The notes: generated from the sequence alone by a model not told the origin. 64,000 nt of DNA from an uncultured archaeon (GCA_903904885.1 CAIVED010000021.1:17456-81455); one strand, 5' to 3'; shown: positions 33,721-53,990, counted from the stretch's first letter. Numbers and translations are program-made.

Positions 33721-33752
33721 GGTATTTAAAGTTTGCACGTCGCGGCCACAGC
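33721..33752 (+). promoter_or_regulatory. TATA (ggtatttaaag) plus GC box (gcacgtcgcggccac)
   Basis: Member of the recurrent TATA + ACGTSGCGGCC motif family. It is followed by a second TATA-like agatttataaatc (33758-33770) ahead of the lipoprotein gene. Confidence 0.5.
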
Positions 33753-33808
33753 AGCATTAGATTTATAAATCAAAGCCGGTTTAGAAGACAATGGGGGGTG
33801 TTAGATAC

Positions 33809-37248: not shown

Positions 37249-37290
37249 GGTATTTAAACCTTGCACGTGGCGATGATGGCAACGTGAGAA
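37249..37290. promoter_or_regulatory. Repeat/promoter module ggtatttaaaccttgcacgtggcgatg (copy 1), palindromic TATA plus CACGTGGCG box
   Basis: 26 nt (37250-37275) are identical to 38461-38486. On the minus strand it reads gtgcaaggtttaaatac, a BRE/TATA, upstream of the Bro-N gene. Confidence 0.55.
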
Positions 37291-37299
37291 TAAACTATT

Positions 37300-38459: not shown

Positions 38460-38500
38460 TGTATTTAAACCTTGCACGTGGCGATGGAGACGGCGCAGGG
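38460..38500. promoter_or_regulatory. Repeat/promoter module tgtatttaaaccttgcacgtggcgatg + gagacggcgcaggg (copy 2)
   Basis: Identical 26-mer to copy 1. The extension gagacggcgYaggg is shared with the 40541-40554 element. It lies upstream of the MNT-HEPN operon on the minus strand. Confidence 0.55.
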
Positions 38501-38503
38501 AGA

Positions 38504-39025
38504 TTATATCACATCACTCTTCGTGATTATTCCGGCAATCTTGTGCTTCTCCATTACTAAGACTGCAGAATTATGCTTGAGCAGGTCAATAACGGTTGTC
38601 AAAGGAGTCTTGCTGCCTATGGCTGGCAAAGGATCATCAAGCGCATCAGATACAATTTTCTTTCCGAAGTTTTCCAGTATGCTTCTTTCTGATATGCTCC
38701 CGATAATTCTATCCCGGGAATCCGTTACCGGCAGCTGCGATATGCCTTTCTGCTTCATTAAGGCAGCTGCTTTCCTTATTTCATCGCTTTCTTTTGCAAT
38801 GGTTACATTCCTGTTCATCACGTCTGCTGCTGTTTTTTCGTTTTTTAGCTCAATTGATTCCAGTGCATCAAATATCTTCTCTGCTTTCTCGTAGGTTGGG
38901 CTTACCCTTCCTGCCTCTATCTTGACTAATAACGACTGGGAAATTCCTGAAAGGCTTGACAGCTCTGCCTGGGTCAGTTCCAATGCTTTCCTTCTTCTCT
39001 TTATTTCTTCTATCTTTGGTAACAT
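38504..39025 (-). CDS. XRE-type HTH transcriptional regulator fused to tandem CBS domains
   Basis: N-terminal LTQAELSSLSGISQSLLVKIEAGRVSPTY is an XRE HTH. CBS pairs have motifs such as DVMNRNVTIAKESDEIRKAAALMKQKGISQLPV. Confidence 0.7.
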   Translation of the reverse strand: MLPKIEEIKRRRKALELTQAELSSLSGISQSLLVKIEAGRVSPTYEKAEKIFDALESIELKNEKTAADVMNRNVTIAKESDEIRKAAALMKQKGISQLPVTDSRDRIIGSISERSILENFGKKIVSDALDDPLPAIGSKTPLTTVIDLLKHNSAVLVMEKHKIAGIITKSDVI

Positions 39026-40032: not shown

Positions 40033-40204
40033 ATAGTACTTGTAAAATTAAAGCTCTCCGGACCGGTATTGCTCCTTGACAATGCCTATTGTCTTTTCAT
40101 CCTGGATAAATGCCAGCTTTTTATCCTTCAGTTTGGTGGCAAATGATTTTATCTGGTCCAGCGACCAGTCAAGAATGCCTTTTACAGCGCCTTCTATGAT
40201 TTCG

Positions 40205-40459: not shown

Positions 40460-40511
40460 GGTTTGGTTGTTTATAAGCCTTTTGCCTCCTTCTTCGGAAT
40501 CACACGATATG

Positions 40512-40555
40512 CATATTTAAGGTTTGTGCGTGGCCACCGAGACGGCGTAGGGTTA
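40512..40555 (+). promoter_or_regulatory. TATA (catatttaagg) + GC box (tgtgcgtggccaccgagacggcgtaggg) driving radC-PIN operon
   Basis: Motif-family member. The radC ATG is 67 nt downstream of the TATA. Confidence 0.5.
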
Positions 40556-40580
40556 AAACATGCAGGGGAATTCTTAGTGC

Positions 40581-41246
40581 ATGAAGATAAAAGACATGAG
40601 CGAAGGAGAGAGGCCACGGGAGAGGATGATGAGAGAGGGAGTTTCTGTTCTTAGTGATGCTGAATTAATTGCTGTTGTTCTGCAGAAAGGAACCAGGAAG
40701 GAGAATGTTATTGATGTGAGCAACAGGCTGATTGCCAAGTTTGGCCTGGATAAATTGGCTTCTTTGTCTTTGACCGAATTGCAGTCAATTGATGGAATTG
40801 GCCCTGCGAAGGCAATGCAGATTAAATCAATGTTTGAGATTAATAAGCGGGTTAAATCTGTTCGGAATAATGTTCAGATTAAATGCTCAGAGGATGTTTT
40901 TGAATACTGTTCAGGCAAGCTGGCTGATAAAGATAAGGAGTTCTTTATGATAATAATGCTTGATTCCAAGAATAAGATAATAAAGGATGAAATTGTCTCC
41001 ATTGGCACTTTGAATAGTTCTTTAGTTCATCCTCGCGAGATATTCAAATCAGCAATTAAAGAAAGCGCTAATTCTGTAATATTAGTTCACAACCATCCTT
41101 CCGGAGATCCAACCCCCTCAGAGGAAGACGAAGAGATTACTAAACGACTGGTTGAGGCAGGGGAGTTGTTGAATATTAAAGTGCTGGATCATGTTGTTTT
41201 AGGAAGAATTAAATATCACAGTATTGTGGGCAAGAATCATGATTAA
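40581..41246 (+). CDS. radC: RadC-like JAB/JAMM domain protein
   Basis: N-terminal LSDAELIAVVLQKG. The JAMM motif is HNHPSGDPTPSEEDEEITKRL. 221 aa. Confidence 0.8.
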   Translation: MKIKDMSEGERPRERMMREGVSVLSDAELIAVVLQKGTRKENVIDVSNRLIAKFGLDKLASLSLTELQSIDGIGPAKAMQIKSMFEINKRVKSVRNNVQIKCSEDVFEYCSGKLADKDKEFFMIIMLDSKNKIIKDEIVSIGTLNSSLVHPREIFKSAIKESANSVILVHNHPSGDPTPSEEDEEITKRLVEAGELLNIKVLDHVVLGRIKYHSIVGKNHD

Positions 41247-41631
41247 GATATATGTTGATACTTGTGTTTATGTGGATCTCTTTGAAGGTGGTCGTAAATC
41301 TGCCCTTGCTTATGCTTTCTTTTCAAAGGGATGGAATTGTGCTTTTGAACTTGTGGTTTCGGATTGGGTGCGGTCAGAGCTTAGAAGAAGAAAAATGGAT
41401 TCCGATTATCCTTTGCTATTTGAAAAGTTTAAGGCTAAGAATAAGCTACATTTGATTGAGCATACTGAAGAAGAGCTGAAACTGGCTAAATCAAAGTCTG
41501 ACCATTGGCAGGATTATCTGCATTATCTGATAGCTAAGAAAGCAGGATGTGACAAGATTGTGACTTGTGATAAAGATTTTATTTTTTCTGTTTCACCCAT
41601 CTTTGATATAGTTCGTCCCGAGAATATTTAG
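41224..41631 (+). CDS. PIN-domain protein (VapC-like), co-transcribed with radC
   Basis: MIKIYVDTCVYVDLFEG is an N-terminal acidic cluster. The C-terminus has IVTCDKDF. It overlaps the radC stop by 23 nt. Confidence 0.55.
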   Translation: MWARIMIKIYVDTCVYVDLFEGGRKSALAYAFFSKGWNCAFELVVSDWVRSELRRRKMDSDYPLLFEKFKAKNKLHLIEHTEEELKLAKSKSDHWQDYLHYLIAKKAGCDKIVTCDKDFIFSVSPIFDIVRPENI

Positions 41632-42481
41632 CATCAGTATATCCAAATATCACTTGATCTAACTGTTCCTCAGCCTCCTGCTTTTTTTCTTCAATCTTAT
41701 CTTTAAGATATTCTTCTATCTCATCTCCATAATAAGTTCTCAAGGATTCTTTGAAGTTTACTAATGAGATATATTTCCACAAACTAGAGAAGAAAATACT
41801 TCTTGTTTTCTCCCATCCAAGAAGCATAGTGGCTCTTGCAAAATCTGTTACCAAATCTAAAGTTTCTTTAGGCACTAATTTGAGAAGCTCTAATGGATCT
41901 ATCTCTTTTCCTGATATTATATCTTCTTTGAACTTGTAGAGTTTATTGTCATATTTTTTATATACTTCTTTTTGCAGATCTATTGGTTCTAATTTACAGT
42001 ACTGTTCTGATTTTTCTTTGATTAGAATTTCATAATCTAGTTTTATTTCACTTTCTTCATTTCCAGAATATATTAACACAGAACAAGGGCCATGCTGATA
42101 CCAGCCAACCGGAAGATTAAGGTTTTTTTCTTTCATTACCTCATAAATTATTTTGTACACATGAGTTTTAGCCGGGTTCTTGCCATAGGCTTCATTACAA
42201 TATTTTCTTATGAGGGCATAGATAGTATGCATTACTTTTTTTTCTTGCTCTCTGATTGGCAAGCTGAAATATGTATCATCAGAATTTTTTAGGGATATCA
42301 ATTTTTCTCTTCCATCATTTTTCACTTCAACAATTCCTCCTTTCTCAAATGCAGAGATATACTGAGAAACCGTTACTCTGTTTATTTTTGATGAATTGCT
42401 TAGCTGTGTTAAGGTCTGTTCTCCTTGTTTTAGAGAATTGATTATGCTGGGGATGATATCTGAAGGTGACTTTCTTTCCAT
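41579..42481 (-). CDS. Hypothetical protein with N-terminal winged-HTH
   Basis: LTQLSNSSKINRVTVSQYISAFEKGGIVEV near the N-terminus. AT-rich gene. 300 aa. Confidence 0.45.
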   Translation of the reverse strand: MERKSPSDIIPSIINSLKQGEQTLTQLSNSSKINRVTVSQYISAFEKGGIVEVKNDGREKLISLKNSDDTYFSLPIREQEKKVMHTIYALIRKYCNEAYGKNPAKTHVYKIIYEVMKEKNLNLPVGWYQHGPCSVLIYSGNEESEIKLDYEILIKEKSEQYCKLEPIDLQKEVYKKYDNKLYKFKEDIISGKEIDPLELLKLVPKETLDLVTDFARATMLLGWEKTRSIFFSSLWKYISLVNFKESLRTYYGDEIEEYLKDKIEEKKQEAEEQLDQVIFGYTDAKYSRDELYQRWVKQKK

Positions 42482-42604
42482 TAGCTGTGATATATGTATT
42501 CTGATATATAAATGTTTTGATTATCATAATGGGATAATATGTTAATTGTAATTTACATATGTTTATAAACATCCTCATATTTATCCGCTTAAAAAAAAGA
42601 TTTT

Positions 42605-42883
42605 GTGAAATATACTAAAATGAGAAAACAAGTTAAAAAATGGGTTGATGGAGATTCGGGCTATTTTGCAGATGGCTCAGGATTTAGACTAGCTCGTGTT
42701 AGGGCTCCGGAGAAATATCAGTTTGGCGGTTCAAGAGCAACAAGAAGAGCAGCAGGAATGACTGCCAGGTCAAATGGCAATGTGAATGTCCAAGTTGTTG
42801 GCAGAAGCTATGGCCGAACAGTGGTTGAGCTGAGCAATTCAGACGGTTCAATCAACAACAGATTAATCCGAAGAGGTTGTTAG
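42605..42883 (+). CDS. Small protein with SNase/thermonuclease-like N-terminal motif (possibly truncated)
   Basis: WVDGDSGYF...RLARVRAPE resembles the SNase DGDT...RL.GIDAPE motif. Only 92 aa. Confidence 0.3.
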   Translation: MKYTKMRKQVKKWVDGDSGYFADGSGFRLARVRAPEKYQFGGSRATRRAAGMTARSNGNVNVQVVGRSYGRTVVELSNSDGSINNRLIRRGC

Positions 42884-43296
42884 AAGAAGGGGAGGTAAAA
42901 ATGAAATATGAATTTTTGATTTGTGCAGTTCTGCTACTTTTTTTAGCAGGGTGCAGTAATGACTATGTGAGTGGAAAGGTTAGCGCAAAGTTAGATTCAA
43001 TAGGCATACAAAACAATGCAGATACAAAACTGACAGTAACCGTGCAGAATACTGGTACACTCCCGTTCGAAGGTACACTGAAAGTTATCCCAGAAGATGG
43101 GGCAGTTACTGCGTCATATCCTAATGATAAGGAACTAACATTTACCCTACAAAAACAAGAACAACAAACTAAAGTATTCACCATACATGGGACCACTAAA
43201 ACCATAAGCACAAATTATTTGATTAAGGTGGTACTAGTAAACAACACAAATGGAATAATTGATCAAACAGAGGTCACATTGACTGTAAACAAATAA
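42877..43296 (+). CDS. Lipoprotein (139 aa)
   Basis: LLLFLAGCSNDY lipobox. Beta-rich mature region. Confidence 0.55.
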   Translation: MLEEGEVKMKYEFLICAVLLLFLAGCSNDYVSGKVSAKLDSIGIQNNADTKLTVTVQNTGTLPFEGTLKVIPEDGAVTASYPNDKELTFTLQKQEQQTKVFTIHGTTKTISTNYLIKVVLVNNTNGIIDQTEVTLTVNK

Positions 43297-43302
43297 AGTA
43301 AA

Positions 43303-43857
43303 ATGAAAAAGACAACGTACATTAAGTTTTTTGCGCCAATAGATAATAATACGGTTCATACGCTGATGACAGTGATAGACCAAAAGATCCTGGAAGGAGT
43401 AAATAAAATAGTTTTAATCATATCTTCTCAGGGAGGCTCAGTTTTTCATGGCATTAGCGCATATAATTATCTTAATGGACTTCCAGTTGAGGTAGAAACC
43501 CATAATTTTGGAAGTGTAGACTCAATCGGAGTTGTTTTGTTCTTGTCTGGGAAAAAAAGATTTGCTGTACCCGACTCAAGGTTCATGATGCACCCAGTTG
43601 TGATGAATTTTGTGAATGGTTCTACATTGGATGAACATGGGCTTAATGAAACTATAAAAGGGCTAAAAATGGATTCACAAAATATAGCGTCCATAATAGC
43701 AAAAAACACTGATAAAAACGTAGAAGACATTAAGAATGAAATTAATAATAGAACAACTTTGAGCGCTTCTGAAGCTAAAGATTTTGGTTTAATTCATGAG
43801 ATTAAGAAAGAATTGATTCCTGTGGGAGCAGATTTAGTGTGCATAAATGTTCCATAA
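43303..43857 (+). CDS. ClpP-like (S14) serine peptidase, phage/defence-type
   Basis: KFFAPIDNNTVHTLMTVIDQ...IISSQGGSVFHGISAYNYL...KKRFAVPDSRFMMHPV parallels ClpP IYLFGPIDD...INSPGGSV...GKRFALPNSRIMIHQP. Confidence 0.6.
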   Translation: MKKTTYIKFFAPIDNNTVHTLMTVIDQKILEGVNKIVLIISSQGGSVFHGISAYNYLNGLPVEVETHNFGSVDSIGVVLFLSGKKRFAVPDSRFMMHPVVMNFVNGSTLDEHGLNETIKGLKMDSQNIASIIAKNTDKNVEDIKNEINNRTTLSASEAKDFGLIHEIKKELIPVGADLVCINVP

Positions 43858-43864
43858 ATAAAAT

Positions 43865-45325
43865 TCATACCTCAAACGCCTCCCTCAAAACTGCTTCCAT
43901 CAATAACTCAGAATTCTTTTGGTTTTCTTTGACTCTGGTTTCTAATTCATCGCAAAGCTTCATTAATTGGTCAACTTTTTCAACAATACGCTTTTGTTCG
44001 AAGAGAGGTGGGAGGGGAAATAAGTACTCTCTCAAATAGTTTAGCGCGACAAATGATTGAACAGCCCCACTTGATTTTTCTTTCATAATAACTTCTGCAT
44101 ACCTTAAAAAATAAAGAAGATATTTAGAATTACTTAAATGAGTGTTGTAAAATTTAAAAAGTGCTACATTTTTTATACTGAAATTTGGTTCAATATCAAT
44201 TAAAACTGGATTTCCTATACTGCCAATCATAGCAAAGATTATGTCCCCTTTATCAACTTTTGAACGTTTTGATATCTCAATATGATCTTGATTTGAGATG
44301 TACTTAATATTATTCATATCCAGTTTTCCGTTGTAGATATTTTTACTAGTCACAAGAGGAAATCCTTCGTTGACATATTTGGGAGTATCATGTGTCCCAT
44401 CCCTCACATCAAAAACGTCTTGTAATCTTGCCCACACCCATCCGCCAGGTAGTTCATAATGAATTTCTTCTTTTGTGATTGGTGGCAGAGGTTTGTCTTT
44501 CTTGATTTTCTTTTCTTTAATTAATTTCTCTTTCTCTGCTTTAATCTTCTTTAACAATTCTGATGCAGGTTCGTCTTTTGGGTCTTGCGGAACAAGTTTT
44601 CCAGAAACAGCTTCTTGAAGGATTGATTTTCTTAAGTGCGAAATTAATTCAAAATCGTCTAAATAAATATTTCTTATAGTATTGTAACCTTCTTTGGTAA
44701 GAATAAACTCTTTTAATTGAGGAATTATTGCAGCATACCCTCTTACGTCCTCCACTAACTTAGTTTTTTCTATATGAAACAGTAATTTTTGAACATTTTC
44801 TTGAATTTCTAATGGGGGAATAGGAACTTCCGTATTTTTTACGACATCTTGGCTAATGTTAGGTTGCGCACCTCCAAAACTTTGTTGTATATATTCAAAT
44901 CTTTTTTGTCTAAAGAACCAAAATAAGTATTCTTTAGAGATTCCTTTTTCAGGATAAACTGCGCAAACTGCTTGATTGGACGCAGCTTCAAATCCCAATA
45001 TTCCCGTCTTTCCAACTGTGGCGCCATAAAGAGCTAATACTAAAGTTCCTTTTGGATATAACTTAGCGCTTGAATTTTTTAAGGCATCTTCAGTTATGGT
45101 TTCCTCTGATACCATGATTATAGTATCATTCAGCTCTCCAGACTTAATCCATGCAATGTTTCCACCATAATAGGCTGATATTGACCTATTAGGTGTTCCC
45201 CCACTTGTAGTTTTTGCAATATCTTTAATCTTTTTTGAAGGATATTTTTGTGATAGATAATTAAAGAGTATTTTAGCTACACCTACTGAAGTATCTACTT
45301 TGTTGTAAAATTCAAGCAATCTCAT
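43865..45325 (-). CDS. hsdS: Type I restriction-modification specificity subunit HsdS (two TRDs)
   Basis: Conserved spacers are VPIPPLEIQENVQKLL and LFPLPPLFEQKRIVEKVDQLMKLCDELE. Its start overlaps the hsdM stop by 4 nt. Confidence 0.85.
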   Translation of the reverse strand: MRLLEFYNKVDTSVGVAKILFNYLSQKYPSKKIKDIAKTTSGGTPNRSISAYYGGNIAWIKSGELNDTIIMVSEETITEDALKNSSAKLYPKGTLVLALYGATVGKTGILGFEAASNQAVCAVYPEKGISKEYLFWFFRQKRFEYIQQSFGGAQPNISQDVVKNTEVPIPPLEIQENVQKLLFHIEKTKLVEDVRGYAAIIPQLKEFILTKEGYNTIRNIYLDDFELISHLRKSILQEAVSGKLVPQDPKDEPASELLKKIKAEKEKLIKEKKIKKDKPLPPITKEEIHYELPGGWVWARLQDVFDVRDGTHDTPKYVNEGFPLVTSKNIYNGKLDMNNIKYISNQDHIEISKRSKVDKGDIIFAMIGSIGNPVLIDIEPNFSIKNVALFKFYNTHLSNSKYLLYFLRYAEVIMKEKSSGAVQSFVALNYLREYLFPLPPLFEQKRIVEKVDQLMKLCDELETRVKENQKNSELLMEAVLREAFEV

Positions 45326-46758
45326 TTTTTAATACTTTTCTGAATAGTATCGATAATTTCAGATATTTTTTTGCTGTTTTCATTTAATTTTGTCAATAAT
45401 TCAGGTATTGTATGATTTTGAGAAGTTTCAACATTACTTGGATTATTCACATCCAAATTATAATTCCTTTTCTTTATTTCATCAATGGTTACTTTCCAGC
45501 AATTCTTTGAGAATTTCTCATCTTCTCTGTTCTTCCACCATTCTTTTTCTAAGTCAAACTCTTCAATTCTGATTGGCTTGGTTTTATTGTATGTTTTAGC
45601 TCCTTCTGGAAGTGGATGTTCAAAATACCATATCTCTTTTGTTCCTTTGCCAGATTTTTCAAAGAACAAGAGATTTGTTCTAATCCCAGTATATGGACTA
45701 AACACCCCGTTTGGCAATCTAACAATTGTATGAAGATTAAATTCAGATAGCAATTTTTCTTTTATTCTTGTTTTTACTCCCTCACCAAATAAGAATCCAT
45801 CAGGTAAAACCATTCCACATCTTCCTTCATCTCGAAGTAATTTAGTAATCAAAACTAAAAATAAATCTGCGGTTTCTCTAGTTCTATAAGCTGATGGAAA
45901 GTTTGATTCTATTCCTGGTTCCTCTGCGCCCCCAAATGGTGGATTGGTTACGACAACATCAACCATATCTGCGGGGCCATAATCTGCTAAAGGTCTAGCC
46001 AATGAATTGTCATGTCTTATATTTGGAACTTCAACGCCATGAAGAATCATATTGGTAGTGCAAAGCAAATGAGCAAGAGGCTTTTTTTCAATTCCGTTAA
46101 TATTCTTCTGTAAAGTGTCCCAATCTTCATCGCTTTTTGCGTTTTTCTTCATCTTTTCCAAAGCACAAATCAAAAAGCCTCCTGTTCCGCAAGCAGGATC
46201 AAGGACTTTTTCTCCCAGTTTTGGATTAACCATGTCAACAATAAACTGAGTTACTGCTCTAGGCGTGTAGTATTCTCCTGCATTTCCTGCAGATTGTAAA
46301 TCAGAAAGAATTTTCTCATATATATCATTAAACATATGCCTATCTTCTGACTTGTTGAAATCAACCTCATTTAGCTTATTGATAACTTGTCTAATTAGAG
46401 TTCCAGACTTCATGTAATTATAAGCATCTTCAAAAACTTCTTTGATAATAAACCCTTTTGGGTCATCTTCTTTAGACACATTTAATCCTTTTAATGTTTT
46501 GAATAATTTTCCAATGAAATCAAGAAGTTCATCACCAGTTATTCCTTCTTTATCTGCTGCCCAATTTCTCCATCTGAATTTTTCAGGAAGAGGGGATTTG
46601 TATTCTTCATTTTCTAATTCCCATTCTTTTTCTTTATCATCGAATATCTTTAGAAAAATCATCCAAACCAACTGAGAAATCCTTTGGGCATCTCCATCTA
46701 CTCCTGCATCTTGACGCATTATATCTTGTATTGATTTTATTATTGTTGATATTGACAT
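45322..46758 (-). CDS. hsdM: Type I R-M N6-adenine DNA methyltransferase HsdM
   Basis: Motif I is VLDPACGTGGFL. Motif IV is VVTNPPFGG. Confidence 0.9.
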   Translation of the reverse strand: MSISTIIKSIQDIMRQDAGVDGDAQRISQLVWMIFLKIFDDKEKEWELENEEYKSPLPEKFRWRNWAADKEGITGDELLDFIGKLFKTLKGLNVSKEDDPKGFIIKEVFEDAYNYMKSGTLIRQVINKLNEVDFNKSEDRHMFNDIYEKILSDLQSAGNAGEYYTPRAVTQFIVDMVNPKLGEKVLDPACGTGGFLICALEKMKKNAKSDEDWDTLQKNINGIEKKPLAHLLCTTNMILHGVEVPNIRHDNSLARPLADYGPADMVDVVVTNPPFGGAEEPGIESNFPSAYRTRETADLFLVLITKLLRDEGRCGMVLPDGFLFGEGVKTRIKEKLLSEFNLHTIVRLPNGVFSPYTGIRTNLLFFEKSGKGTKEIWYFEHPLPEGAKTYNKTKPIRIEEFDLEKEWWKNREDEKFSKNCWKVTIDEIKKRNYNLDVNNPSNVETSQNHTIPELLTKLNENSKKISEIIDTIQKSIKK

Positions 46759-46760
46759 TT

Positions 46761-49085
46761 TTAACTCCCCGCATATAATTGTTCTTTAATCTCGTTTAGA
46801 GCTTTAAGGTACTTTTCTTTTCCACCAAAAGATTCTATTATTTCTACAGGTGTTCCAAATTCTCTAAATGGATTGACTTTCAAAATAGTCATTGTTTCTA
46901 TATTCTCTATTCCTTCGTCTGCATATTTGTCAAGAAGAGCTTCTATTATTTTACGCGCTTTTTCACCATATTTTGTGAAATAATTTCTCTTTTTAACATT
47001 ATTTGCTCTTTCTTTTCTTGTTAAAGGTTTTTGGTCAAAAGCGACATGGCAAACTAAGTCAAATTCATCGAAGTTTTTCCCAACTTCTTCTTTTAGTTCA
47101 TGAAGAAATATTCCATTTTCTATCATTTCCTGGATTATTGCAGATTTTTTATCTGTGGATTTCCATTTTTTTAGGAAATTGTCTAGTGACTTAAACTCTT
47201 TTGTCGCTGTTTTCTTTGTATAATCCTTTAACGATTCTGTGATTAGTTTTCCCTCTTTGTCAAATATTTGCACTCTTTCATTTAGAACTCTTACTTCTAC
47301 ATTATTAACATAATACTTTCTGGGTTTATCTGGCGATTCTTTCAGCAAATAAACTTGTTCCTGAACAGAACCATAAACTTTCTCAATCGGGGCAGTTTCA
47401 GGAATTATAATTTCTTCATCTGCTGTAAACTCCTCACATTGTACTGGTTCACCATCAAAGTCAGGATCAGCAAATAAATTTGTTACTTGTCTAAAATCCA
47501 TGATAGTAAAATAAGATTTATCATAGTCTTCTCTTATTCTGGTTCCCCTTCCAATAATCTGTTTAAATTCAGTCATAGATTGTATGTTGCTTTCCAGAAC
47601 AATTAATTTGCATGTCTGAGCATCAACCCCCGTATTAAGTAGTTTTGATGTTGTTGCTATAACTGGATATTTTGATGATGGGTCGATGAAATTATCTAGT
47701 TCTCGTTTACCCAGAATATCATCTCCTGTGATTTTTACAACATATTTTGAATTTTTTGTGACTAAATCCTTATTTTCATTACAGAGCGCTCTTCTCATTC
47801 TTTCAGCATGTTCTATATCTACACAGAAAACTATTGTTTTGTCAAATCTATTTGTCTTTTTTAGATATTCTGTAATTTTTTTAGCAACTAATATTGTTCG
47901 GGCGTCTAGTACAATATTCCTATCATAATCTTTTATATTATAGATCCTATCGGGTATTTCATTGCCATATTTGTCAATTTTTCCTTTTTCAGGTCTATAT
48001 CCTTCAACGTCTTTATCTATTGTAATTCTTATAACTTTATATGGTGCTAAGAACCCATCCTGAATTCCTTGTTTTAATGAATAAACATAAAGAGGTTTTC
48101 CAAAATAATGACTATTTGAAACATCTCTATCCTCTTTTGGTGTTGCAGTCAACCCAATTTGTGTTGCTTTAGGGAAATATTCTAAAACCTCTCTCCATTG
48201 AGAATTGATTGCTGCGCTACCTCTATGGCACTCATCTACAATTATTAAATCAAAGAATTCTTTTGAAAATTGCTTATAGATATTTTTCCATTCTTCGTTA
48301 CCTGTAACTGATTGGTATAATGCAAGGTAAACTTCATAAGATGTGTCAACCTTTCTGTTAGTTATTCTAGTCATAACCTTGCTGAAAATCTTAAAGTCAT
48401 TATTACGTGGTTGAGTTAATAATACATCTCTATCAGTTAAGAAGAGTACTCTTTTTTTTGTTTTTGATTCTAATAACTTATGCATGATTTGAGAAGCCAC
48501 ATAAGTTTTTCCAGTTCCAGTAGCTAAAACTAGCAAAATTCTATCTTGACCTTTAGCAACTGCTTCTACAGTTCTATTAATTGCAATTTGCTGATAATAT
48601 CTTGGTTTCTTTTGTCCAGCATAATAATCTTGTGTAATAATTTCTTCCTGCTTCTTGCTTATCCCTTTCCATTCCTTATATCGATTCCACAATTCATCTG
48701 GACTTGGAAATTTGTCCAAAGACAACTCTTTTTCAACTTCTTTAGAGTTACCTGTTTTATCATGCTCAATAAATCCATCTCCATTTGAGCTGTAAACAAA
48801 AGGAATATCTAGAATTTCTCCATAATCCAGAGCCTGCTGGATTCCCGAACCAATATCGTGATTATTATCTTTTGCTTCAATTATTGCTATTGGCAAATTT
48901 GGCTTATAATAAAGAATGTAGTCTGCTCTTTTCTTTTCCCCTCTTATTGTTTTATCTCCTTTTAAAAGAATTCTCCCATCTGTAAAAGTAACTTCTTCTC
49001 TAAACAATTGCCAGCCCGAATGTTTAATCGAAGGAGTTATGTATTTTGTACAAATATCCCTTTCAGAGAGTGATTTTTTATTCAT
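46761..49085 (-). CDS. hsdR: Type I R-M restriction subunit HsdR (SF2 helicase/endonuclease)
   Basis: Walker A is LVLATGTGKTYVA. The DEAH box is IIVDECHRGS. An N-terminal nuclease region is present. 774 aa. Confidence 0.9.
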   Translation of the reverse strand: MNKKSLSERDICTKYITPSIKHSGWQLFREEVTFTDGRILLKGDKTIRGEKKRADYILYYKPNLPIAIIEAKDNNHDIGSGIQQALDYGEILDIPFVYSSNGDGFIEHDKTGNSKEVEKELSLDKFPSPDELWNRYKEWKGISKKQEEIITQDYYAGQKKPRYYQQIAINRTVEAVAKGQDRILLVLATGTGKTYVASQIMHKLLESKTKKRVLFLTDRDVLLTQPRNNDFKIFSKVMTRITNRKVDTSYEVYLALYQSVTGNEEWKNIYKQFSKEFFDLIIVDECHRGSAAINSQWREVLEYFPKATQIGLTATPKEDRDVSNSHYFGKPLYVYSLKQGIQDGFLAPYKVIRITIDKDVEGYRPEKGKIDKYGNEIPDRIYNIKDYDRNIVLDARTILVAKKITEYLKKTNRFDKTIVFCVDIEHAERMRRALCNENKDLVTKNSKYVVKITGDDILGKRELDNFIDPSSKYPVIATTSKLLNTGVDAQTCKLIVLESNIQSMTEFKQIIGRGTRIREDYDKSYFTIMDFRQVTNLFADPDFDGEPVQCEEFTADEEIIIPETAPIEKVYGSVQEQVYLLKESPDKPRKYYVNNVEVRVLNERVQIFDKEGKLITESLKDYTKKTATKEFKSLDNFLKKWKSTDKKSAIIQEMIENGIFLHELKEEVGKNFDEFDLVCHVAFDQKPLTRKERANNVKKRNYFTKYGEKARKIIEALLDKYADEGIENIETMTILKVNPFREFGTPVEIIESFGGKEKYLKALNEIKEQLYAGS

Positions 49086-49156
49086 TTTATTGGTCTAATA
49101 ACTATTAATTTTATAAAGATTATCTTTGCCTTAGTTAGCCATTCCCCACAATCCTT

Positions 49157-50320
49157 TCAATCATCTTCTTTTCTGTTTGATAAAGATACTCTATATCCCT
49201 TCTCTTTATCAACCATCTTATCTACATCCGAATCAATCTCTCCTTTTATCGCATCTGAATTTAGTCTTGAATAACAAATCATCGAATACACATCATAAAG
49301 CCCCTTCTTCTTAAGTAAAGCTATCAACTTAGTCTTGTCTTCAGGTAAAACAACAGATAAATACTCCCTAACCGCCGCTTTCTTATTCGAACCAAAGACT
49401 ACTTCAATTCCTTTCTGCTTGGCAAATAATATAATCTCATCTTTTAGCTCTTCCATCTTCTCTTCTGCATTCTTTTTAACTAGCTGCAATTTAGAATACT
49501 CATCAACCATCTTGACTCCAGCGTCTTTCTTGAATTCTTTGGCTGTTTTCAGCTCAAGCTCAATGTCATGCTTCCAGGCAGGGCAGATTGATTTATAAGA
49601 GCAGTAATCACACAAAGCAGTAACCTTAGTTGGAAATTCTTTTGCTTTCTCAACTTCCTTTATCAGTGCCATTGTATCGTCCTGAAGCTTCTTCAGCTGC
49701 GCATCTGTCCTTTCAGAAGTAACTTCCTTGTTGAAGGCAAGCATGTGCCACAGAAGAACTACTTTTTTGGCATCCTTGAAAGTATTCTTAACCCAGATTG
49801 AATACATAGCCAATTGCCTGTCTTCATCAGCCTCCTGCTGGTCTTTCATCCTGTTATTTGACTTGTAATCGCAGACATAATAAACACCGTTTTTGAAGCC
49901 TAATTTGTCCATTCTCACATGATAATGATTTCCATCAGGAAGATGCAGTCTGTCCTGTGTTTCAAGCCCTAAAATAGTCATCTGGTCAAAAGGAGCATAA
50001 TTATTATAGTAATCTGTCAAATACTTCTCTCCCATCAGCTTATAATTTTTAGCAGAATAATCTTTCTTTACAATTATTATGTCATCTGTCCAGCTCTTAT
50101 CCCATGAATCCCTGTAAAATTTAAGCAAGTCCTTCAAAGAATTCAGTTTCTGGAATTTTAAGTCCTTATACAGCTTCTCAAGCGCTTCATGAACGCGGCT
50201 GCCCATAAATGCTTCAACTGACTCTGCACCTTCAATCTTAACACCATCAATATACTGCAATTTATACTTATACCTGCATTGCGAAAATGTGCTTAGTTTG
50301 GAATGCGAGTAAGTGGCCAT
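49157..50320 (-). CDS. Cas4-like PD-(D/E)XK nuclease with Cys cluster (stand-alone)
   Basis: N-terminal SHSKLSTFSQCRYKYKLQYI. The core is VRMDKLGFKNGVYYVCDYKS...QLAMY. The C-terminus is CDYCSYKSICPAW. Paralog of the ORF at 14667-15482. Confidence 0.6.
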   Translation of the reverse strand: MATYSHSKLSTFSQCRYKYKLQYIDGVKIEGAESVEAFMGSRVHEALEKLYKDLKFQKLNSLKDLLKFYRDSWDKSWTDDIIIVKKDYSAKNYKLMGEKYLTDYYNNYAPFDQMTILGLETQDRLHLPDGNHYHVRMDKLGFKNGVYYVCDYKSNNRMKDQQEADEDRQLAMYSIWVKNTFKDAKKVVLLWHMLAFNKEVTSERTDAQLKKLQDDTMALIKEVEKAKEFPTKVTALCDYCSYKSICPAWKHDIELELKTAKEFKKDAGVKMVDEYSKLQLVKKNAEEKMEELKDEIILFAKQKGIEVVFGSNKKAAVREYLSVVLPEDKTKLIALLKKKGLYDVYSMICYSRLNSDAIKGEIDSDVDKMVDKEKGYRVSLSNRKEDD

Positions 50321-50365
50321 TCTGGGAGTATTGATTGTTTGTTATTTATAAATCTTGCAGCAGGA

Positions 50366-50412
50366 TGTCTAGTGGGTCGCGGCCGCCACGTCTTAAAATT
50401 AAATACTCAAAG
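50366..50412. promoter_or_regulatory. Divergent promoter region with central GC box gtcgcggccgccacgtc (NotI site) flanked by ttaaaattaaatac
   Basis: Motif-family member lying between the divergent Cas4-like (-) and NYN (+) genes. A tttataaat TATA (50344-50352) faces the minus-strand gene. Confidence 0.5.
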
Positions 50413-50427: not shown

Positions 50428-51162
50428 ATGGAAAAACGAAAATCTTATATAGCTCCTGAGCTTAAAAATTCATATTTAAGTCCCCAGTATGACCTCCTTG
50501 GAGGGAATGCTGGGCATCCTTCTCATGCCGTTGTTTTTGTAGATGCCAATAACTGGTATCATAATGTTAAGAAATTTATTGACCCAAGCGAAGTTGATAT
50601 TCTTAAAGTGGCTAAGTTTCTATGCGAAGTCAAAAAGTATAATTTAGTTGGGGTAAGATGGTACGCTTCAACTCCAAGCATTGCGGATGGGGAAAGAATG
50701 TACTACAAGCATATGGCTTTTTTGCAGCATCTCGAGAAAAAAGGAATAAAAGTTATTACCCGGAAACTTCAAAGAATATCAAATAAGGAAATCCAGAAGA
50801 AAAGAAGGGACACTATAGACAACCTGGACTTGTGCGATCATTGCAGGCCTCTGGTTGAATCTGTTTTTCTTGACTTGGCTGATCTGAAGAAAAAAGAAAA
50901 AGGCATAGATGTCTGGGTTGCGATCGACATGATAAAAGAGTCTGTAATTGACAAAAACTGCGATGTTTGCATACTTATCTCCGGAGATGCTGACTTCACT
51001 CCTGCACTGAGCCTCATAAAAAGCCATGGGAAGGAAGTGCTTACTGCGATGGTTCCTTTTGGATATTCTTCAGAACTTATAAGGGAATTTCCATTTTTTA
51101 TATTGAGAAAAGAAACTCTGATGAAATGCCTAAGAGGCTACAGAGAGAAACCTCCCAGTTAG
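50428..51162 (+). CDS. NYN-domain (LabA-like) putative RNase
   Basis: VVFVDANNWYHN...DVWVAIDM...ILISGDADFTPAL are NYN/PIN-like acidic motifs. Confidence 0.7.
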   Translation: MEKRKSYIAPELKNSYLSPQYDLLGGNAGHPSHAVVFVDANNWYHNVKKFIDPSEVDILKVAKFLCEVKKYNLVGVRWYASTPSIADGERMYYKHMAFLQHLEKKGIKVITRKLQRISNKEIQKKRRDTIDNLDLCDHCRPLVESVFLDLADLKKKEKGIDVWVAIDMIKESVIDKNCDVCILISGDADFTPALSLIKSHGKEVLTAMVPFGYSSELIREFPFFILRKETLMKCLRGYREKPPS

Positions 51163-51445: not shown

Positions 51446-51526
51446 TTTTAGTTATTAATTAATAACTATAAGTTATTAACTTATATATAAATCTTTCGGC
51501 CTGAACAAGTAAGAATTAGAAGGGAA

Positions 51527-51566
51527 GTATTTAATCCTACGCCGTTGCGGCCGCAACTGCGTAACC
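51527..51566 (+). promoter_or_regulatory. TATA (gtatttaatcc) + 20-bp near-perfect palindrome gccgttgcggccgcaactgc
   Basis: Motif-family member. It is inserted between ctttcgg and ttaatattgttaac, two blocks that are contiguous in the paralogous flank at 52513-52540. Confidence 0.5.
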
Positions 51567-51629
51567 TTTTAAATCGCTAGTTAACACTCTTAACCAAAAC
51601 AGCCAAAAAACAGTTATTTGTTAATATTG

Positions 51630-53944: not shown

Positions 53945-53990
53945 TCTTAAACTTTATACGTCGCGGCCGCCACGGCGAACATTTAAAACA
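53945..53990. promoter_or_regulatory. Divergent promoter with central GC box acgtcgcggccgccacggcg (NotI site) flanked by tttaaa elements
   Basis: Lies between the NYN (-) and RFC (+) genes. An acatttaaaac TATA sits ~40 nt upstream of the RFC ATG at 54025. Confidence 0.5.

What the first reader, a model, noticed from the sequence alone, without database searches (positions are those of the whole stretch)
41579..50320. Low-GC block (wHTH protein, SNase-like fragment, lipoprotein, ClpP-like protease, hsdSMR, Cas4-like) bounded by GC-box promoter elements
By eye this ~8.7 kb is markedly more AT-rich than its surroundings, roughly 30% GC against about 40% elsewhere, with long A/T runs and AT-rich codons. 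The edges fall near GC-box elements at 40512-40555 and 50366-50412. A ClpP-like S14 peptidase plus an SNase-like fragment upstream of the R-M genes is reminiscent of viral or plasmid remnants. This is consistent with horizontal acquisition of the R-M system as part of a mobile element.
Basis: inference. Interest (0 to 1): 0.5.

Follow-up and report, generated by a model that had tools for sequence, protein, structure and literature searches.

The report
Low-GC restriction-modification defence island
The AT-rich block is real: it is the core of a defence-gene island in a small uncultured archaeon (Woesearchaeota-like), where an intact type I restriction-modification system with foreign composition sits in a swappable slot beside a conserved four-gene cluster. 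This is an ordinary kind of horizontally exchanged defence locus, not a demonstrable virus or plasmid remnant.

Summary
Observation confirmed. Bases 41579-50320 have GC 0.336 against 0.432 for the rest, about 7.7 SD below same-size windows. The drop is at third codon positions (GC3 0.255 vs 0.509). A maximum-likelihood fit puts the edges at 41381-49500.

The host is a Woesearchaeota-like DPANN archaeon. The block has four layers:
- RadC-PIN-tandem-wHTH-mini-SNase quartet (40581-42883), conserved in five other lineages and syntenic in a congener (L016).
- Lipoprotein plus N-truncated ClpP-like protease (42.9-43.9 kb), found only here.
- Intact type IB (EcoAI/FtnUII) hsdSMR operon (43865-49085).
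- Solo Cas4-like nuclease with host-like GC3.

In the congener, homology stops 11 nt after the SNase-like stop codon and a Schlafen-like helicase follows. Other lineages have other defence genes there. The same hsdRM is low-GC in a mid-GC host at another site (L007) and compositionally native in a 31.5%-GC lineage (L008). hsdRM synonymous divergence is lower than that of the adjacent quartet.

Horizontal exchange of the R-M operon is therefore supported. A mobile element or viral remnant is not: I found no integrase, transposase, att repeats or phage genes. The island lies in a 20-kb hypervariable stretch between a class-I aaRS and RFC-L.

One copy is duplicated around a 2-kb insertion.

The parts
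40512..40557 (.). GC-box element 'd': TATA-like box, GC-rich core, TATA-like box. Sits between the divergent starts of hyp84 (-) and radC (+).
   Evidence: The half-site pattern matches on both strands. It aligns to the single element of L016 on its radC side.
40581..41246 (+). radC (RadC-like JAB/JAMM protein, 221 aa), first gene of the conserved quartet
   Evidence: Pfam RadC 156.8 bits plus UPF0758_N. NCBIfam NF000642 258.6 bits, cutoff 180. JAMM motif HNHPSGDPTPSEED. Adjacent to PIN/wHTH/SNase in L008, L016, L017 and L018. GC3 is 0.44 in the N-terminal half and 0.34 in the C-terminal half.
41224..41631 (+). PIN-domain protein (135 aa as ORF; likely start ATG at 41242, a 4-nt overlap with the radC stop)
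   Evidence: Pfam PIN 30.3 bits. 76-93% identical in L008, L014, L016, L017 and L018.
41579..42481 (-). 300-aa tandem winged-helix DNA-binding protein of an uncharacterised family. Its 3' end overlaps the 3' end of the PIN gene by 53 nt, convergently, and this overlap is conserved in all loci.
   Evidence: HTH_5/HTH_45 weak. AF2 model pLDDT 87.7; only the wHTH parts match solved structures. 18 close homologues and 327 representatives.
42605..42883 (+). Mini SNase-like protein (92 aa), last gene of the conserved quartet
   Evidence: Pfam SNase 18.2 bits, below the gathering score of 21. Motifs DGDS, FRL, RAPE and YGR present. Homologues of 84-104 aa in L008, L016, L017 and L018, 37-85% identical.
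42877..43296 (+). Predicted lipoprotein (139 aa as ORF; lipobox LAGC), unique to this window
   Evidence: No family hit. No counterpart in any related locus.
43303..43857 (+). N-terminally truncated ClpP-like serine protease (184 aa), unique to this window
   Evidence: Pfam CLP_protease 89.9 bits, matching profile positions 43-179. Below all NCBIfam cutoffs. Best solved relative is 9uxt PpClpP1, E = 7e-24. Ser74 and His97 present; GLIH replaces GLID.
43865..45325 (-). hsdS, type I specificity subunit with two target-recognition domains
   Evidence: Pfam Methylase_S with 2 stretches. PADLOC Specificity_I. Only the central and C-terminal conserved regions match L008/L012 at DNA level.
45322..46758 (-). 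hsdM, N6-adenine DNA methyltransferase subunit
   Evidence: Pfam N6_Mtase 254.5 bits plus HsdM_N. PADLOC MTase_I 702 bits. Motifs NPPF and DPACGTGGF. GC3 0.24.
46761..49085 (-). hsdR, EcoAI/FtnUII-family (type IB) restriction subunit
   Evidence: NCBIfam NF046051 1162 bits, cutoff 550. ResIII plus EcoEI_R_C. Motifs D55..E70AK, GTGKT, DECH, QIIGRGTR. GC3 0.21. DNA homology to L007, L008 and L012 ends at its start codon.
49157..50320 (-). Solo Cas4-like PD-(D/E)XK nuclease (387 aa) upstream of hsdR. Host-like GC3 (0.41); not part of the unit shared with other loci.
   Evidence: Pfam PDDEXK_1 96.7 bits and Cas_Cas4 23.4 bits. Four Cys (C15, C237xxCx5C), DYK and QLAMY motifs..
50366..50407 (.). 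GC-box element 'e' (inverted relative to most copies), between the divergent starts of PDDEXK387 (-) and NYN244 (+).
38461..38510 (.). GC-box element 'c', the partner of 'd'. Together they flank the 2.0-kb insertion 38511-40511 that is absent from L016.
   Evidence: Alignment A2. The left half is 23/23 identical to the single L016 element..
33721..33772 (.). GC-box element 'a', at the left synteny break with L004 (homology ends at 33744, inside the GC core)
53946..53987 (.). GC-box element 'g', abutting the conserved RFC-L TATA box. Marks the right synteny break with L004 and L002.
37249..37295 (.). GC-box element 'b', between Bro-N342 and HEPN175; 26/26 identical to the left half of 'c'
   Evidence: (D5)
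51526..51574 (.). GC-box element 'f', upstream of hyp89 and downstream of NTase187

Best explanation
The low-GC block is the AT-rich core of a defence island in a Woesearchaeota-like DPANN archaeon.

(a) The anchor is a four-gene cluster: radC-PIN (one operon), a convergently overlapping tandem winged-helix protein, and a mini SNase-like protein. It recurs in at least five other Woesearchaeal lineages.

(b) Directly after the SNase-like gene lies a 'slot' that holds different defence genes in each lineage. Here the slot holds a lipoprotein, an N-truncated ClpP-like protease and a complete type IB (EcoAI/FtnUII family) restriction-modification operon, hsdR-hsdM-hsdS. A solo Cas4-like nuclease lies upstream of hsdR.

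Inferred function: HsdM2S methylates a bipartite target on host DNA, and HsdR2M2S translocates along and cuts unmethylated incoming DNA.

Shown: the R-M operon did not evolve in place. It belongs to a low-GC gene pool (GC3 about 0.2-0.3) that circulates among Woesearchaeota and related archaea, and it was exchanged into this slot horizontally.

Inferred: the route was most likely recombination using the conserved neighbours as homology anchors, as in allelic replacement at bacterial hsd loci, not a self-mobile element.

The whole island sits in a 20-kb hypervariable interval between a class-I aminoacyl-tRNA synthetase and RFC large subunit. These two genes are adjacent in more distant relatives.
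For: Composition.

Host identity: the closest named RFC-L homologues are Woesearchaeota or Nanoarchaeota.

Synteny:
- In L006, aaRS and RFC-L are 78 bp apart.
- In L004, only three small genes lie between them.
- Window/L004 homology breaks at 33744 and resumes at about 53979-54100.
- The congener L016 (aaRS 87% aa) has aaRS...HAD-NTase-RadC-PIN-wHTH-SNase. Homology to the window ends at 42894, 11 nt past the SNase-like stop, and a Schlafen-group-3 helicase follows.

Slot variability: L017 has a different EcoEI_R_C R subunit, L012 has PDC-M11A/B plus hsdSMR, L008 has a 160-aa ORF plus hsdSMR, and L018 has no R-M within 10 kb.

R-M family and integrity.

Gene-pool composition:
- In L008, cassette GC3 (0.18-0.32) equals that of the flanking chromosomal genes.
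- In L007, hsdR/M GC3 is 0.24-0.25 against 0.50-0.55 in the neighbouring chromosomal genes, at a different locus.

Synonymous divergence, window vs L009: hsdR and hsdM have pS 0.63 (dS 1.37), while RadC, PIN and wHTH are saturated at pS 0.75-0.82.

Other points: hsdS target-recognition domains are swapped while its conserved regions stay 86-88% identical at DNA level. HsdR is 65-66% identical to bacterial proteins and 69-73% to other archaeal phyla, which shows broad horizontal spread of the family.
Against: - No donor closer than 80-81% DNA identity (dS at least 1.4) exists in the databases, so the transfer is old and its direction is inferred from composition only.
- The quartet, which is syntenic in the congener, has nearly as low a GC3 (0.28-0.40) in both genomes. 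Low GC is therefore not by itself proof of recent acquisition.
- The R-M lies next to the quartet in both the window and the distant L008 lineage. This could reflect an old linkage with losses elsewhere, not repeated insertion.
- pS of 0.63 is close to saturation, which weakens the dS contrast.
- The right-hand side (49.1-54 kb) has no independent assembly to compare with.
- The recombination mechanism is inferred, not shown.
Confidence: 0.75

Rival explanations
1. The block is (the remnant of) an integrated mobile element, whether virus, plasmid or integrative element. It brought the R-M system, the ClpP-like protease and the SNase-like gene in one event.
For: - Foreign composition.
- ClpP184 resembles phage head-maturation proteases (phrog_94, E = 2.9e-25).
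- RadC and PD-(D/E)XK exonuclease families occur in phages.
- A Bro-N protein with a strong PHROG match lies 4 kb to the left (phrog_15286, 337 bits).
Against: - No integrase, recombinase, transposase, capsid, portal, terminase or replication gene was found in the scanned ORFs.
- No att-like repeats flank 42.9-49.1 kb, and the locus is not next to a tRNA gene.
- ClpP184 is at most 35% identical to phage or plasmid proteins and is equally close to cellular ClpP. Its best solved match is a chromosomal Pseudomonas ClpP1. It scores below the head-maturation cutoff (58.7 vs 120) and has no relative in IMG/VR.
- The SNase-like and wHTH genes are syntenic in a congener, so they were not imported together with the R-M.
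- The block's parts have different histories.
Confidence: 0.08
2. No horizontal transfer occurred. The locus is vertically inherited, and its low GC reflects a local or functional bias, such as low expression, relaxed codon selection, or AT-bias of defence genes.
For: - The syntenic quartet is also low-GC in both the window and L016.
- Other accessory genes of the region are somewhat GC-poor (GC3 0.42).
- R-M lies next to the quartet in two distant lineages.
Against: - The R-M segment is replaced by unrelated genes in the congener and in L017.
- It is absent from the aaRS-RFC-L interval of L004 and L006.
- The same operon sits at an unrelated locus in L007, with the same GC3 contrast.
- hsdRM dS is lower than the dS of the adjacent quartet for the same genome pair.
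- HsdR is 65% identical to bacterial proteins.
Confidence: 0.08
3. Cassette accretion at the GC-box elements. The whole stretch between elements d and e (40516-50407), like the neighbouring modules, was inserted by site-specific recombination between ~42-nt palindromic GC-box sites, catalysed by a recombinase encoded elsewhere. The process would be integron-like or Xer/dif-module-like.
For: - Eight copies, seven of them in the 20-kb variable region, against 2.1 pattern matches expected by chance.
- Copies sit at module junctions and at both synteny breaks with L004.
- A single element in L016 corresponds to two copies in the window that flank a 2.0-kb insertion, with hybrid-looking halves.
- Half-sites are mosaic.
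Against: - The quartet inside 'module D' is syntenic in L016, where elements lie on both sides of the quartet alone. Module D is therefore not one cassette.
- The breakpoint with L016 at 42894 is not at an element. The 36261-37798 insertion also lacks elements at its ends.
- Every copy is placed as a BRE/TATA promoter for an outward-reading gene, so a regulatory role explains the conservation.
- No recombinase was found. Single-strand folding is not conserved.
- The same R-M cassette in L008 and L012 has no such boxes.
Confidence: 0.12
4. Assembly artefact: the low-GC segment is a chimeric join of reads from a low-GC organism into this MAG contig.
For: - The source is a metagenome assembly.
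- The L002 and L014 contigs end at island borders, which shows that assemblers struggle here.
Against: - An independent assembly from another sample (L016) joins the low-GC quartet to the same housekeeping flanks.
- SNase-like followed by hsdS-hsdM-hsdR, in the same order and orientation, is seen in four independent contigs of another lineage.
- A double chimera with intact, overlapping gene junctions is improbable.
Confidence: 0.03

Closest known systems
Type IB restriction-modification systems (EcoAI / FtnUII family; HsdR with EcoEI_R_C C-terminal domain)
   Same: - Three-gene hsdR-hsdM-hsdS operon.
- HsdR passes the NCBIfam equivalog cutoff (1162 vs 550) and has nuclease, DEAD-box helicase and EcoEI_R_C modules.
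- HsdM has NPPF and SAM motifs.
- HsdS has two target-recognition domains and conserved spacer regions.
   Different: - Found in a DPANN archaeon, where R-M systems are reported to be under-represented (PMC12988326).
- The recognition sequence is unknown, and the TRDs differ from those of the closest relatives (40% identity).
- Activity was not tested.
Defence islands, and the hsd 'immigration control region' of enterobacteria, where different hsd alleles or families replace one another between conserved flanks (the second from my own knowledge of the field)
   Same: - A fixed chromosomal neighbourhood (the RadC-PIN-wHTH-SNase quartet) next to a slot holding different R-M or defence genes in different lineages.
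- AT-rich composition.
- No mobility genes.
- TRD shuffling in hsdS.
   Different: - The anchor genes are a previously undescribed Woesearchaeal quartet.
- The anchor itself sits in different chromosomal contexts in different lineages: next to aIF5B in L017, next to S3Ae/VKOR in L008, and near aaRS here.
Solo-Cas4 next to R-M genes in DPANN archaea (Hudaiberdiev et al. 2017, PMC5704561)
   Same: - A PD-(D/E)XK/Cas4-like nuclease with the 4-Cys cluster lies directly upstream of hsdR.
- A second solo Cas4-like gene lies elsewhere in the window (14667-15482).
- No CRISPR array is present.
- The paper reports two solo-Cas4 copies in several DPANN members, and adjacency to R-M genes in several DPANN genomes.
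   Different: - The 387-aa protein has a ~140-aa C-terminal coiled-coil-like extension.
- It scores below the TIGR00372 cutoff.
- It is not part of the unit shared with other loci.
PpClpP1 of Pseudomonas plecoglossicida (PDB 9UXT), a divergent N-truncated ClpP paralogue (PMC12900304)
   Same: - About 183-184 aa, lacking the N-terminal axial loops.
- Catalytic Ser and His conserved.
- The third triad residue is not Asp.
- Best solved match, E = 7e-24.
   Different: - The host is an archaeon, and no ClpX or canonical ClpP partner is seen in the window.
- The gene is paired with a lipoprotein in a defence slot.
- Its function here is unknown.
Xer/dif-flanked modules (pdif modules, IMEX) and integron cassette arrays (compared from my own knowledge)
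   Same: - Short palindromic sites separate small accessory, toxin-antitoxin or defence modules.
- No recombinase is encoded inside the modules.
- One site is duplicated around an insertion.
   Different: - The sites are BRE/TATA promoter-like with a GC-rich palindromic core, not 11-6-11 dif-like or attC hairpins.
- Several breakpoints do not coincide with them.
- No recombinase has been identified.

Membership tests
Type I R-M system, family IB (EcoAI/FtnUII) | R, M and S subunit genes together in one locus | tested here: met
   hsdR 46761-49085, hsdM 45322-46758 and hsdS 43865-45325 lie on the same strand with a 2-nt gap and a 4-nt overlap.
Type I R-M system, family IB (EcoAI/FtnUII) | HsdR reaches the curated family score and has the EcoEI_R_C C-terminal domain | tested here: met
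   NF046051 1162.3 bits against a cutoff of 550, full-length 6-772/768. PF08463 116.3 bits.
Type I R-M system, family IB (EcoAI/FtnUII) | HsdR catalytic motifs: PD-(D/E)xK nuclease and SF2 helicase motifs I, II and VI | tested here: met
   D55...E70-A-K72, GTGKT190, DECH284 and QIIGRGTR509.
Type I R-M system, family IB (EcoAI/FtnUII) | HsdM gamma-class N6-adenine methyltransferase motifs and HsdM_N domain | tested here: met
   N6_Mtase 254.5 bits, HsdM_N 56.7 bits. NPPF272 and DPACGTGGF. The TIGR00497 hsdM equivalog, which models other type I families, scores below its cutoff (80.5 vs 242.75).
Type I R-M system, family IB (EcoAI/FtnUII) | HsdS with two target-recognition domains separated by conserved regions | tested here: met
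   Two Methylase_S stretches. The central (44431-44628) and C-terminal (43870-44014) regions are 86-88% identical to L008 at DNA level, while the TRDs are not alignable.
Type I R-M system, family IB (EcoAI/FtnUII) | Sequence-specific m6A methylation, and ATP-dependent restriction of unmodified DNA | not testable with these tools
   Needs methylome sequencing or biochemistry.
Integrative mobile element / classical genomic island | Atypical composition relative to the host | tested here: met
Integrative mobile element / classical genomic island | Absent from the same site in close relatives | tested here: met
   Met for 42895-49085 against the congener L016, and for the whole interval against L004 and L006. 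Not met for the quartet 40581-42883, which is syntenic in L016.
Integrative mobile element / classical genomic island | Encodes an integrase, recombinase or transposase | tested here: not met
   None among the 60 window ORFs scanned with Pfam. PHROGs, PADLOC and NCBIfam scans of the block genes found none either.
Integrative mobile element / classical genomic island | Flanking direct repeats (att), or insertion at a tRNA gene | tested here: not met
   No repeat of 10 nt or more pairs the 42.9-kb border with the 49.1-kb hsdR border; the three 10-nt matches found lie inside coding sequence at 49.3-50.0 kb. The only tRNA (Phe) is at 59648. The GC-box copies d and e that bound 40516-50407 are in inverted orientation, and the quartet inside is syntenic in L016.
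Prophage / viral remnant | Virion or packaging genes, or a head-maturation protease at family score | tested here: not met
   No capsid, portal or terminase gene. NF045542 (ClpP-related head maturation protease) scores 58.7 against a cutoff of 120. No relative in IMG/VR contigs. Best phage identity is 34.6%.
ClpP (MEROPS S14) protease | Clp fold at the Pfam gathering score | tested here: met
   PF00574 89.9 bits against 20.2.
ClpP (MEROPS S14) protease | Ser-His-Asp catalytic triad | tested here: inconclusive
   Ser74 (GSVDSIG) and His97 (MMHP) are present. The canonical Asp position reads GLIH. In the closest solved relative, only Ser and His are essential (PMC12900304).
ClpP (MEROPS S14) protease | N-terminal axial loops that dock a Clp ATPase; canonical ClpP equivalog score | tested here: not met
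   The profile match starts at position 43 of 182. All NCBIfam ClpP models score below their cutoffs.
Staphylococcal nuclease (SNase) family | Family score and full OB-fold nuclease domain with catalytic residues | tested here: not met
   PF00565 scores 18.2 against a gathering score of 21 and covers only profile positions 2-72 of 107. DGDS, FRL, xAPE and YGR are present, but the Asp40-equivalent is Arg (RAPE). The protein works like, or derives from, an SNase fold, but it is a distinct short family conserved at 84-104 aa.
Cas4 | RecB-type nuclease motifs plus a four-cysteine cluster | tested here: met
   C15, C237-x2-C-x5-C, DYK151 and QLAMY169. PF01930 scores 23.4 against 22.7.
Cas4 | Curated Cas4 score, and association with cas1/cas2 or a CRISPR array | tested here: not met
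   TIGR00372 scores 29.4 against 65. No array in the window. It is therefore a solo Cas4-like PD-(D/E)XK nuclease.
RadC family | Curated equivalog score and JAMM-like motif | tested here: met
   NF000642 258.6 bits against 180, TIGR00608 240 against 133.85. HNHPSGDPTPSEED.

The most novel reading that the evidence does not exclude
The ~42-nt palindromic GC-box elements (TTTAAA-N7-CGTsGCGGCCGCsACG-N7-TTTAAA) may be more than promoters. They could be the recombination sites of an integrase-less, promoter-borne cassette-accretion system that builds defence and toxin-antitoxin islands in this Woesearchaeal lineage. The RadC-PIN-wHTH-SNase quartet would serve as a conserved anchor, or itself as a defence or regulatory module whose tandem-wHTH protein binds these sites.
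Probability: 0.12. Interest if true: 0.7.

Novelty: new member of a known kind. Interest (0 to 1): 0.3.

Why it matters
In itself this is a routine example: an R-M operon with foreign composition in a defence island. Two aspects give it modest value.

First, it documents an intact type IB R-M system and a structured defence island in a DPANN archaeon. That group is reported to be poor in R-M and CRISPR (PMC12988326) and is hard to study.

Second, it defines a conserved, unannotated four-gene anchor (RadC-PIN-tandem wHTH-mini SNase, with a conserved 53-nt convergent gene overlap). Different defence systems are slotted in next to it across lineages. That anchor could be used as a 'guilt-by-association' marker to find new archaeal defence genes.

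The palindromic GC-box elements at module junctions, one of them duplicated around an insertion, are a testable lead on how such islands are assembled without mobility genes.

Tried and rejected
1. Exact-protein look-ups for the source contig found nothing, although identical proteins are in the homology database (P0001, P0121). The 21 kb of the 85-kb contig outside the window could not be read.

2. The genome-contig scan with RFC-L returned only an irrelevant bacterial locus. No species representative is close enough.

3. The metagenome scan with the wHTH alignment gave only two short loci. Contexts had to come from exact-protein look-ups instead.

4. tRNA-linked integration was rejected. The only tRNA gene is 9 kb away.

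5. Structured RNA in the block was rejected. Rfam finds only the tRNA.

6. GC-box as a hairpin or attC-like element was rejected. Only 3 of 8 copies fold better than shuffles.

7. GC-box as a generic promoter of this genome was rejected. Seven of the eight loci lie in the 20-kb variable region, and there are 13 pattern matches against 2.1 expected.

8. GC-box as part of the R-M cassette was rejected. It is absent from L008, L012 and L018.

9. I asked whether the left junction of the low-GC DNA lies inside radC. GC3 steps from 0.44 to 0.34, and two homology ends fall at about 40965. This stayed inconclusive, because the C-terminal JAB domain is simply more conserved and L016 and L017 homology runs through the whole gene.

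10. L016's post-SNase sequence was not found anywhere beyond the insert.

12. The RFC-L dS value against L004 is invalid, because I gave an out-of-frame start coordinate. It is not used.

Full report

Yes. The stretch 41579-50320 has GC 0.336 and the rest of the window 0.432. Same-length windows that do not overlap it have mean 0.4306, sd 0.0124 and minimum 0.404, so the block lies about 7.7 sd below. The 1-kb and 300-nt profiles show a plateau of 0.28-0.36 from about 41.4 to 49.4 kb. A two-changepoint likelihood fit gives 41381-49500, with 0.331 inside and 0.404 outside.

The effect is synonymous. GC1 and GC2 are close to those of other genes, but GC3 is very different:

| Gene set | GC3 |
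|---|---|
| hsdR | 0.21 |
| hsdM | 0.24 |
| hsdS | 0.26 |
| wHTH | 0.28 |
| ClpP-like | 0.30 |
| lipoprotein | 0.31 |
| SNase-like, PIN | 0.32 |
| ten housekeeping genes | 0.51 |
| other accessory genes of the neighbourhood | 0.42 |

Codon choice differs strongly: Leu TTA 0.32 vs 0.06 and Arg AGG 0.13 vs 0.52, with chi-square p = 7e-144. The dinucleotide signature distance is 106, against mean 43 and maximum 84 for flank segments. The PD-(D/E)XK gene at the right end (GC3 0.41) and radC (0.40) are intermediate.

**2. Gene content**

- RadC passes its equivalog cutoff.
- A PIN protein follows it.
- A 300-aa protein has an N-terminal winged helix.
- A 92-aa SNase-like protein scores below the Pfam gathering score.
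- A lipoprotein carries an LAGC lipobox.
- A 184-aa CLP_protease-fold protein follows.
- hsdS, hsdM and hsdR form an operon.
- A 387-aa PDDEXK_1/Cas4-like nuclease lies upstream of hsdR.

HsdR is a full-length EcoAI/FtnUII-family (type IB) restriction subunit (1162 bits, cutoff 550). All diagnostic motifs of HsdR and HsdM are intact. HsdS has two target-recognition domains. The R-M system looks complete and functional.

**3. Host**

The closest named homologues of the RFC large subunit are from Woesearchaeota and Nanoarchaeota MAGs. The window is therefore from a DPANN archaeon. No species representative in GTDB is close.

**4. Synteny**

In a relative whose RFC-L is 68% identical (L006), the class-I aminoacyl-tRNA synthetase and RFC-L are divergent neighbours 78 bp apart. 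In a 78% relative (L004), only an AAA kinase and a PIN_3 toxin-antitoxin pair lie between them. In the window these two genes are 22.7 kb apart. DNA homology with L004 stops at 33744 and resumes at the RFC-L promoter, about 53979-54100. A contig from a 92% relative (L002) diverges from the window immediately left of 53990. The low-GC block is thus nested in a 20-kb hypervariable interval. That interval is otherwise filled with HEPN/NTase pairs, NYN and PIN proteins, a Bro-N protein, an MBL-fold protein and lipoproteins.

**5. The block is composite**

Searching with the 300-aa protein gave 18 close homologues. The wider family has 327 representatives. Its contexts show that RadC-PIN-wHTH-SNase is a conserved quartet. 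It occurs in L008-L011 and L015, L014, L016, L017 and L018 with the same order and orientation and the same 53-nt convergent overlap of the PIN and wHTH genes.

L016 is a congener of the host: aaRS is 87%, HAD 91% and NTase 93% identical at protein level. It carries the quartet in the same neighbourhood (aaRS...HAD-NTase-RadC-PIN-wHTH-SNase), with DNA homology to window 40514-42894. Homology ends 11 nt after the SNase-like stop codon. Beyond it L016 encodes a short ORF and a Schlafen-group-3-type helicase.

In other lineages the same position holds different genes:

| Locus | Contents after the SNase-like gene (or beside RadC) |
|---|---|
| L017 | a different EcoEI_R_C R subunit, 30% identical |
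| L012 | a PDC-M11A/B candidate defence pair plus hsdSMR |
| L008 | a 160-aa ORF plus hsdSMR |
| L018 | no R-M within 10 kb |

The position after the SNase-like gene is therefore a variable defence slot. In the window it holds lipo139 and ClpP184 (found nowhere else) and the type IB operon.

**6. History of the R-M operon**

Its closest relatives are 79-81% identical at DNA level (hsdR 82-87% aa) and sit in different contexts.

- In L008, cassette GC3 (0.18-0.32) equals that of the flanking chromosomal genes (S3Ae 0.29, VKOR 0.24). The operon is compositionally native to a lineage of about 31.5% GC.
- In L007, hsdR/M have GC3 0.24-0.25 next to aCPSF1 and proteasome genes with GC3 0.53-0.55. 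This is a second mid-GC host with the same contrast, at another locus.
- DNA homology to L007, L008 and L012 ends at the hsdR start codon (49067-49091). The Cas4-like gene is therefore not part of the shared unit.
- For the window-L009 pair, hsdR and hsdM have pS 0.63 (dS about 1.4), while the adjacent RadC, PIN and wHTH genes are saturated at pS 0.75-0.82. The operon shares a more recent ancestor than the quartet next to it.
- hsdS keeps its conserved regions at 86-88% DNA identity, but its recognition domains are different.
- HsdR is still 65-66% identical to proteins of Bacillaceae, Pedobacter and Geobacteraceae.

Together this supports horizontal exchange of the operon within a low-GC gene pool. 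The event is not recent, since no donor has dS below about 1.4.

**7. The quartet is not strictly vertical either**

Against L016, its dS is 0.42-0.67 and that of NTase188 is 0.35. The flanking housekeeping genes give 1.04-1.51. The accessory segment therefore coalesces more recently than the core genome. That is expected for a recombining flexible region. It also explains why its low GC3 persists in both genomes.

**8. Mobile element or viral remnant?**

Not supported.

- No integrase, recombinase or transposase occurs in the 60 ORFs scanned across the window.
- There is no CRISPR or other array.
- The only tRNA gene is at 59648.
- No repeats flank 42.9-49.1 kb.
- ClpP184 is at most 35% identical to phage proteins and at most 33% to plasmid ClpPs. 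It has no relative in IMG/VR contigs and scores below the head-maturation-protease cutoff.
- Its best solved relative is PpClpP1 (9UXT), a chromosomal, N-truncated, low-activity ClpP paralogue in which only Ser and His are essential (PMC12900304). ClpP184 shares the truncation, Ser74 and His97, and lacks the Asp.
- The SNase-like protein is a conserved short family, not a fragment.

**9. The 300-aa protein**

The AlphaFold model (pLDDT 87.7) shows two winged-helix domains and a helical C-terminal domain ending in a 50-residue helix. Only the winged helices match solved structures, of the ArsR/SmtB, Sso10a and SelB types. Pfam recognises only the N-terminal wHTH in distant members. It is most likely a DNA-binding regulator. 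Its target is unknown.

**10. The 'GC-boxes'**

They are members of a family of eight elements in the window: 13655, 33721, 37249, 38461, 40512, 50366 (inverted), 51526 and 53946. The half-site pattern gives 13 matches against 2.1 expected, and 0 of 100 shuffles reach 13. A profile search finds no others, and none inside 40.6-50.3 kb.

The full form is a ~42-nt palindrome, TTTAAA-N7-CGTsGCGGCCGCsACG-N7-TTTAAA. Each half reads outward as a BRE/TATA-like promoter, with a gene start 50-130 nt away (this is my reading of the sequence). Seven of the eight lie in the variable interval, at junctions between gene modules. The outermost two coincide with the synteny breaks against L004 and L002.

- L004 and L016 carry copies. 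L017 has a degenerate one upstream of radC.
- L008, L012 and L018 have none. The element therefore belongs to the host lineage's locus, not to the R-M cassette.
- L016 has a single element between the NTase and radC promoters. The window has two copies, at 38461-38510 and 40512-40557, flanking a 2.0-kb insertion (HTH-CBS173, hyp176, hyp163, hyp84). The left copy keeps the L016 left half at 23 of 23 positions, and the right copy keeps the radC-side flank.
- Half-sites are mosaic among copies.

This looks like an occupied versus an empty site and hints at recombination at the elements. Other breakpoints (42894, and 36261/37798) are not at elements. The copies do not fold consistently as single strands, and no recombinase was found. 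A regulatory role as a shared operator in divergent promoters of toxin-antitoxin and defence genes explains most of the conservation. A recombination role remains a minority hypothesis.

**11. Comparison with what is known**

The R-M operon is a regular member of the type IB family.

- A Cas4-like gene next to R-M genes, and two solo-Cas4 copies per genome, have been described for DPANN archaea (PMC5704561).
- Defence islands with AT-rich, horizontally exchanged content are well known (PMC12988326 introduces the concept for archaea, and reports that R-M is under-represented in DPANN).
- Not described, as far as my literature searches show, are the RadC-PIN-wHTH-SNase quartet as an anchor of such islands and the palindromic GC-box elements.

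**12. Verdict**

Interest is modest, and comes mainly from the DPANN context, the conserved anchor quartet and the junction elements.

Noticed in passing
window 13655-13700, 33721-33772, 37249-37295, 38461-38510, 40512-40557, 50366-50407, 51526-51574, 53946-53987; also L016 1018-1070, 3520-3566, 4928-4985; L004 4417-4450: A family of ~42-nt palindromic elements (TTTAAA-N7-CGTsGCGGCCGCsACG-N7-TTTAAA) sits at divergent promoters. Seven of the eight window copies lie in the 20-kb variable interval. One L016 copy corresponds to two window copies flanking a 2.0-kb insertion (38511-40511).
   Followed up: yes
window 41579-41631; L008 10142-10194; L016 2453-2505; L017 3220-3272; L018 10845-10897: The 3' ends of the PIN gene and the 300-aa wHTH gene overlap convergently by exactly 53 nt in every lineage examined. 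This suggests coupled, possibly antisense, regulation.
   Followed up: partly
window 36254-37282 (insertion 36261-37798 relative to L016): A Bro-N domain protein has a very strong match to phage family phrog_15286 (337 bits, E = 1e-100). It is the most virus-like gene of the region. Together with HEPN175 it is absent from the congener L016.
   Followed up: partly
window 55265-56971 vs L002 1284-2320 and L004 5832-7095: The interval between RFC-L and GlyRS is a second variable spot. It holds an S8 subtilisin-like peptidase here, an NTase plus a 161-aa ORF in L002, and DUF8150 plus a 344-aa ORF in L004.
   Followed up: no
window 13918-15482: A NucS/EndoMS endonuclease lies next to a second solo Cas4-like PD-(D/E)XK nuclease (271 aa, 4-Cys cluster). 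It is adjacent to the only GC-box copy outside the variable interval.
   Followed up: partly
window 37300-38390 and 51630-52482; 50428-51162 and 53278-53919: There are two HEPN/nucleotidyltransferase pairs (one NTase has an N-terminal wHTH) and two NYN-domain proteins in the same interval. This fits the reported enrichment of AbiE-like NTase systems in DPANN.
   Followed up: partly
window 16284-19452: Two tandem Kelch-repeat paralogues (509 and 527 aa) share an identical 20-nt stretch (17581-17600 and 19220-19239).
   Followed up: no
window 6516-11684: A very large (1722 aa) Asn/Ser-rich secreted or surface protein with internal repeats. Not analysed.
   Followed up: no
L008 5698-7137 vs L009 4358-5797; L007 9742-10001: In L008, hsdM is split into two ORFs of 112 and 364 aa, while the otherwise near-identical L009 has it intact. 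In L007, homology to hsdR extends about 260 nt upstream of the called 693-aa ORF. These are possible inactivated copies of the same R-M in other populations.
   Followed up: no
window 51438-51479: A perfect-looking AT-rich 21-nt inverted or tandem repeat (TTAATAACTATAAGTTATTAA, two copies) lies immediately upstream of hyp89. It may be an operator.
   Followed up: no
window 40962-40968: The L014 contig end and the L008/L015 blastn homology both stop in mid-radC, where GC3 steps from 0.44 to 0.34. This may be an old recombination breakpoint, but it is also explained by the higher conservation of the JAB domain.
   Followed up: partly
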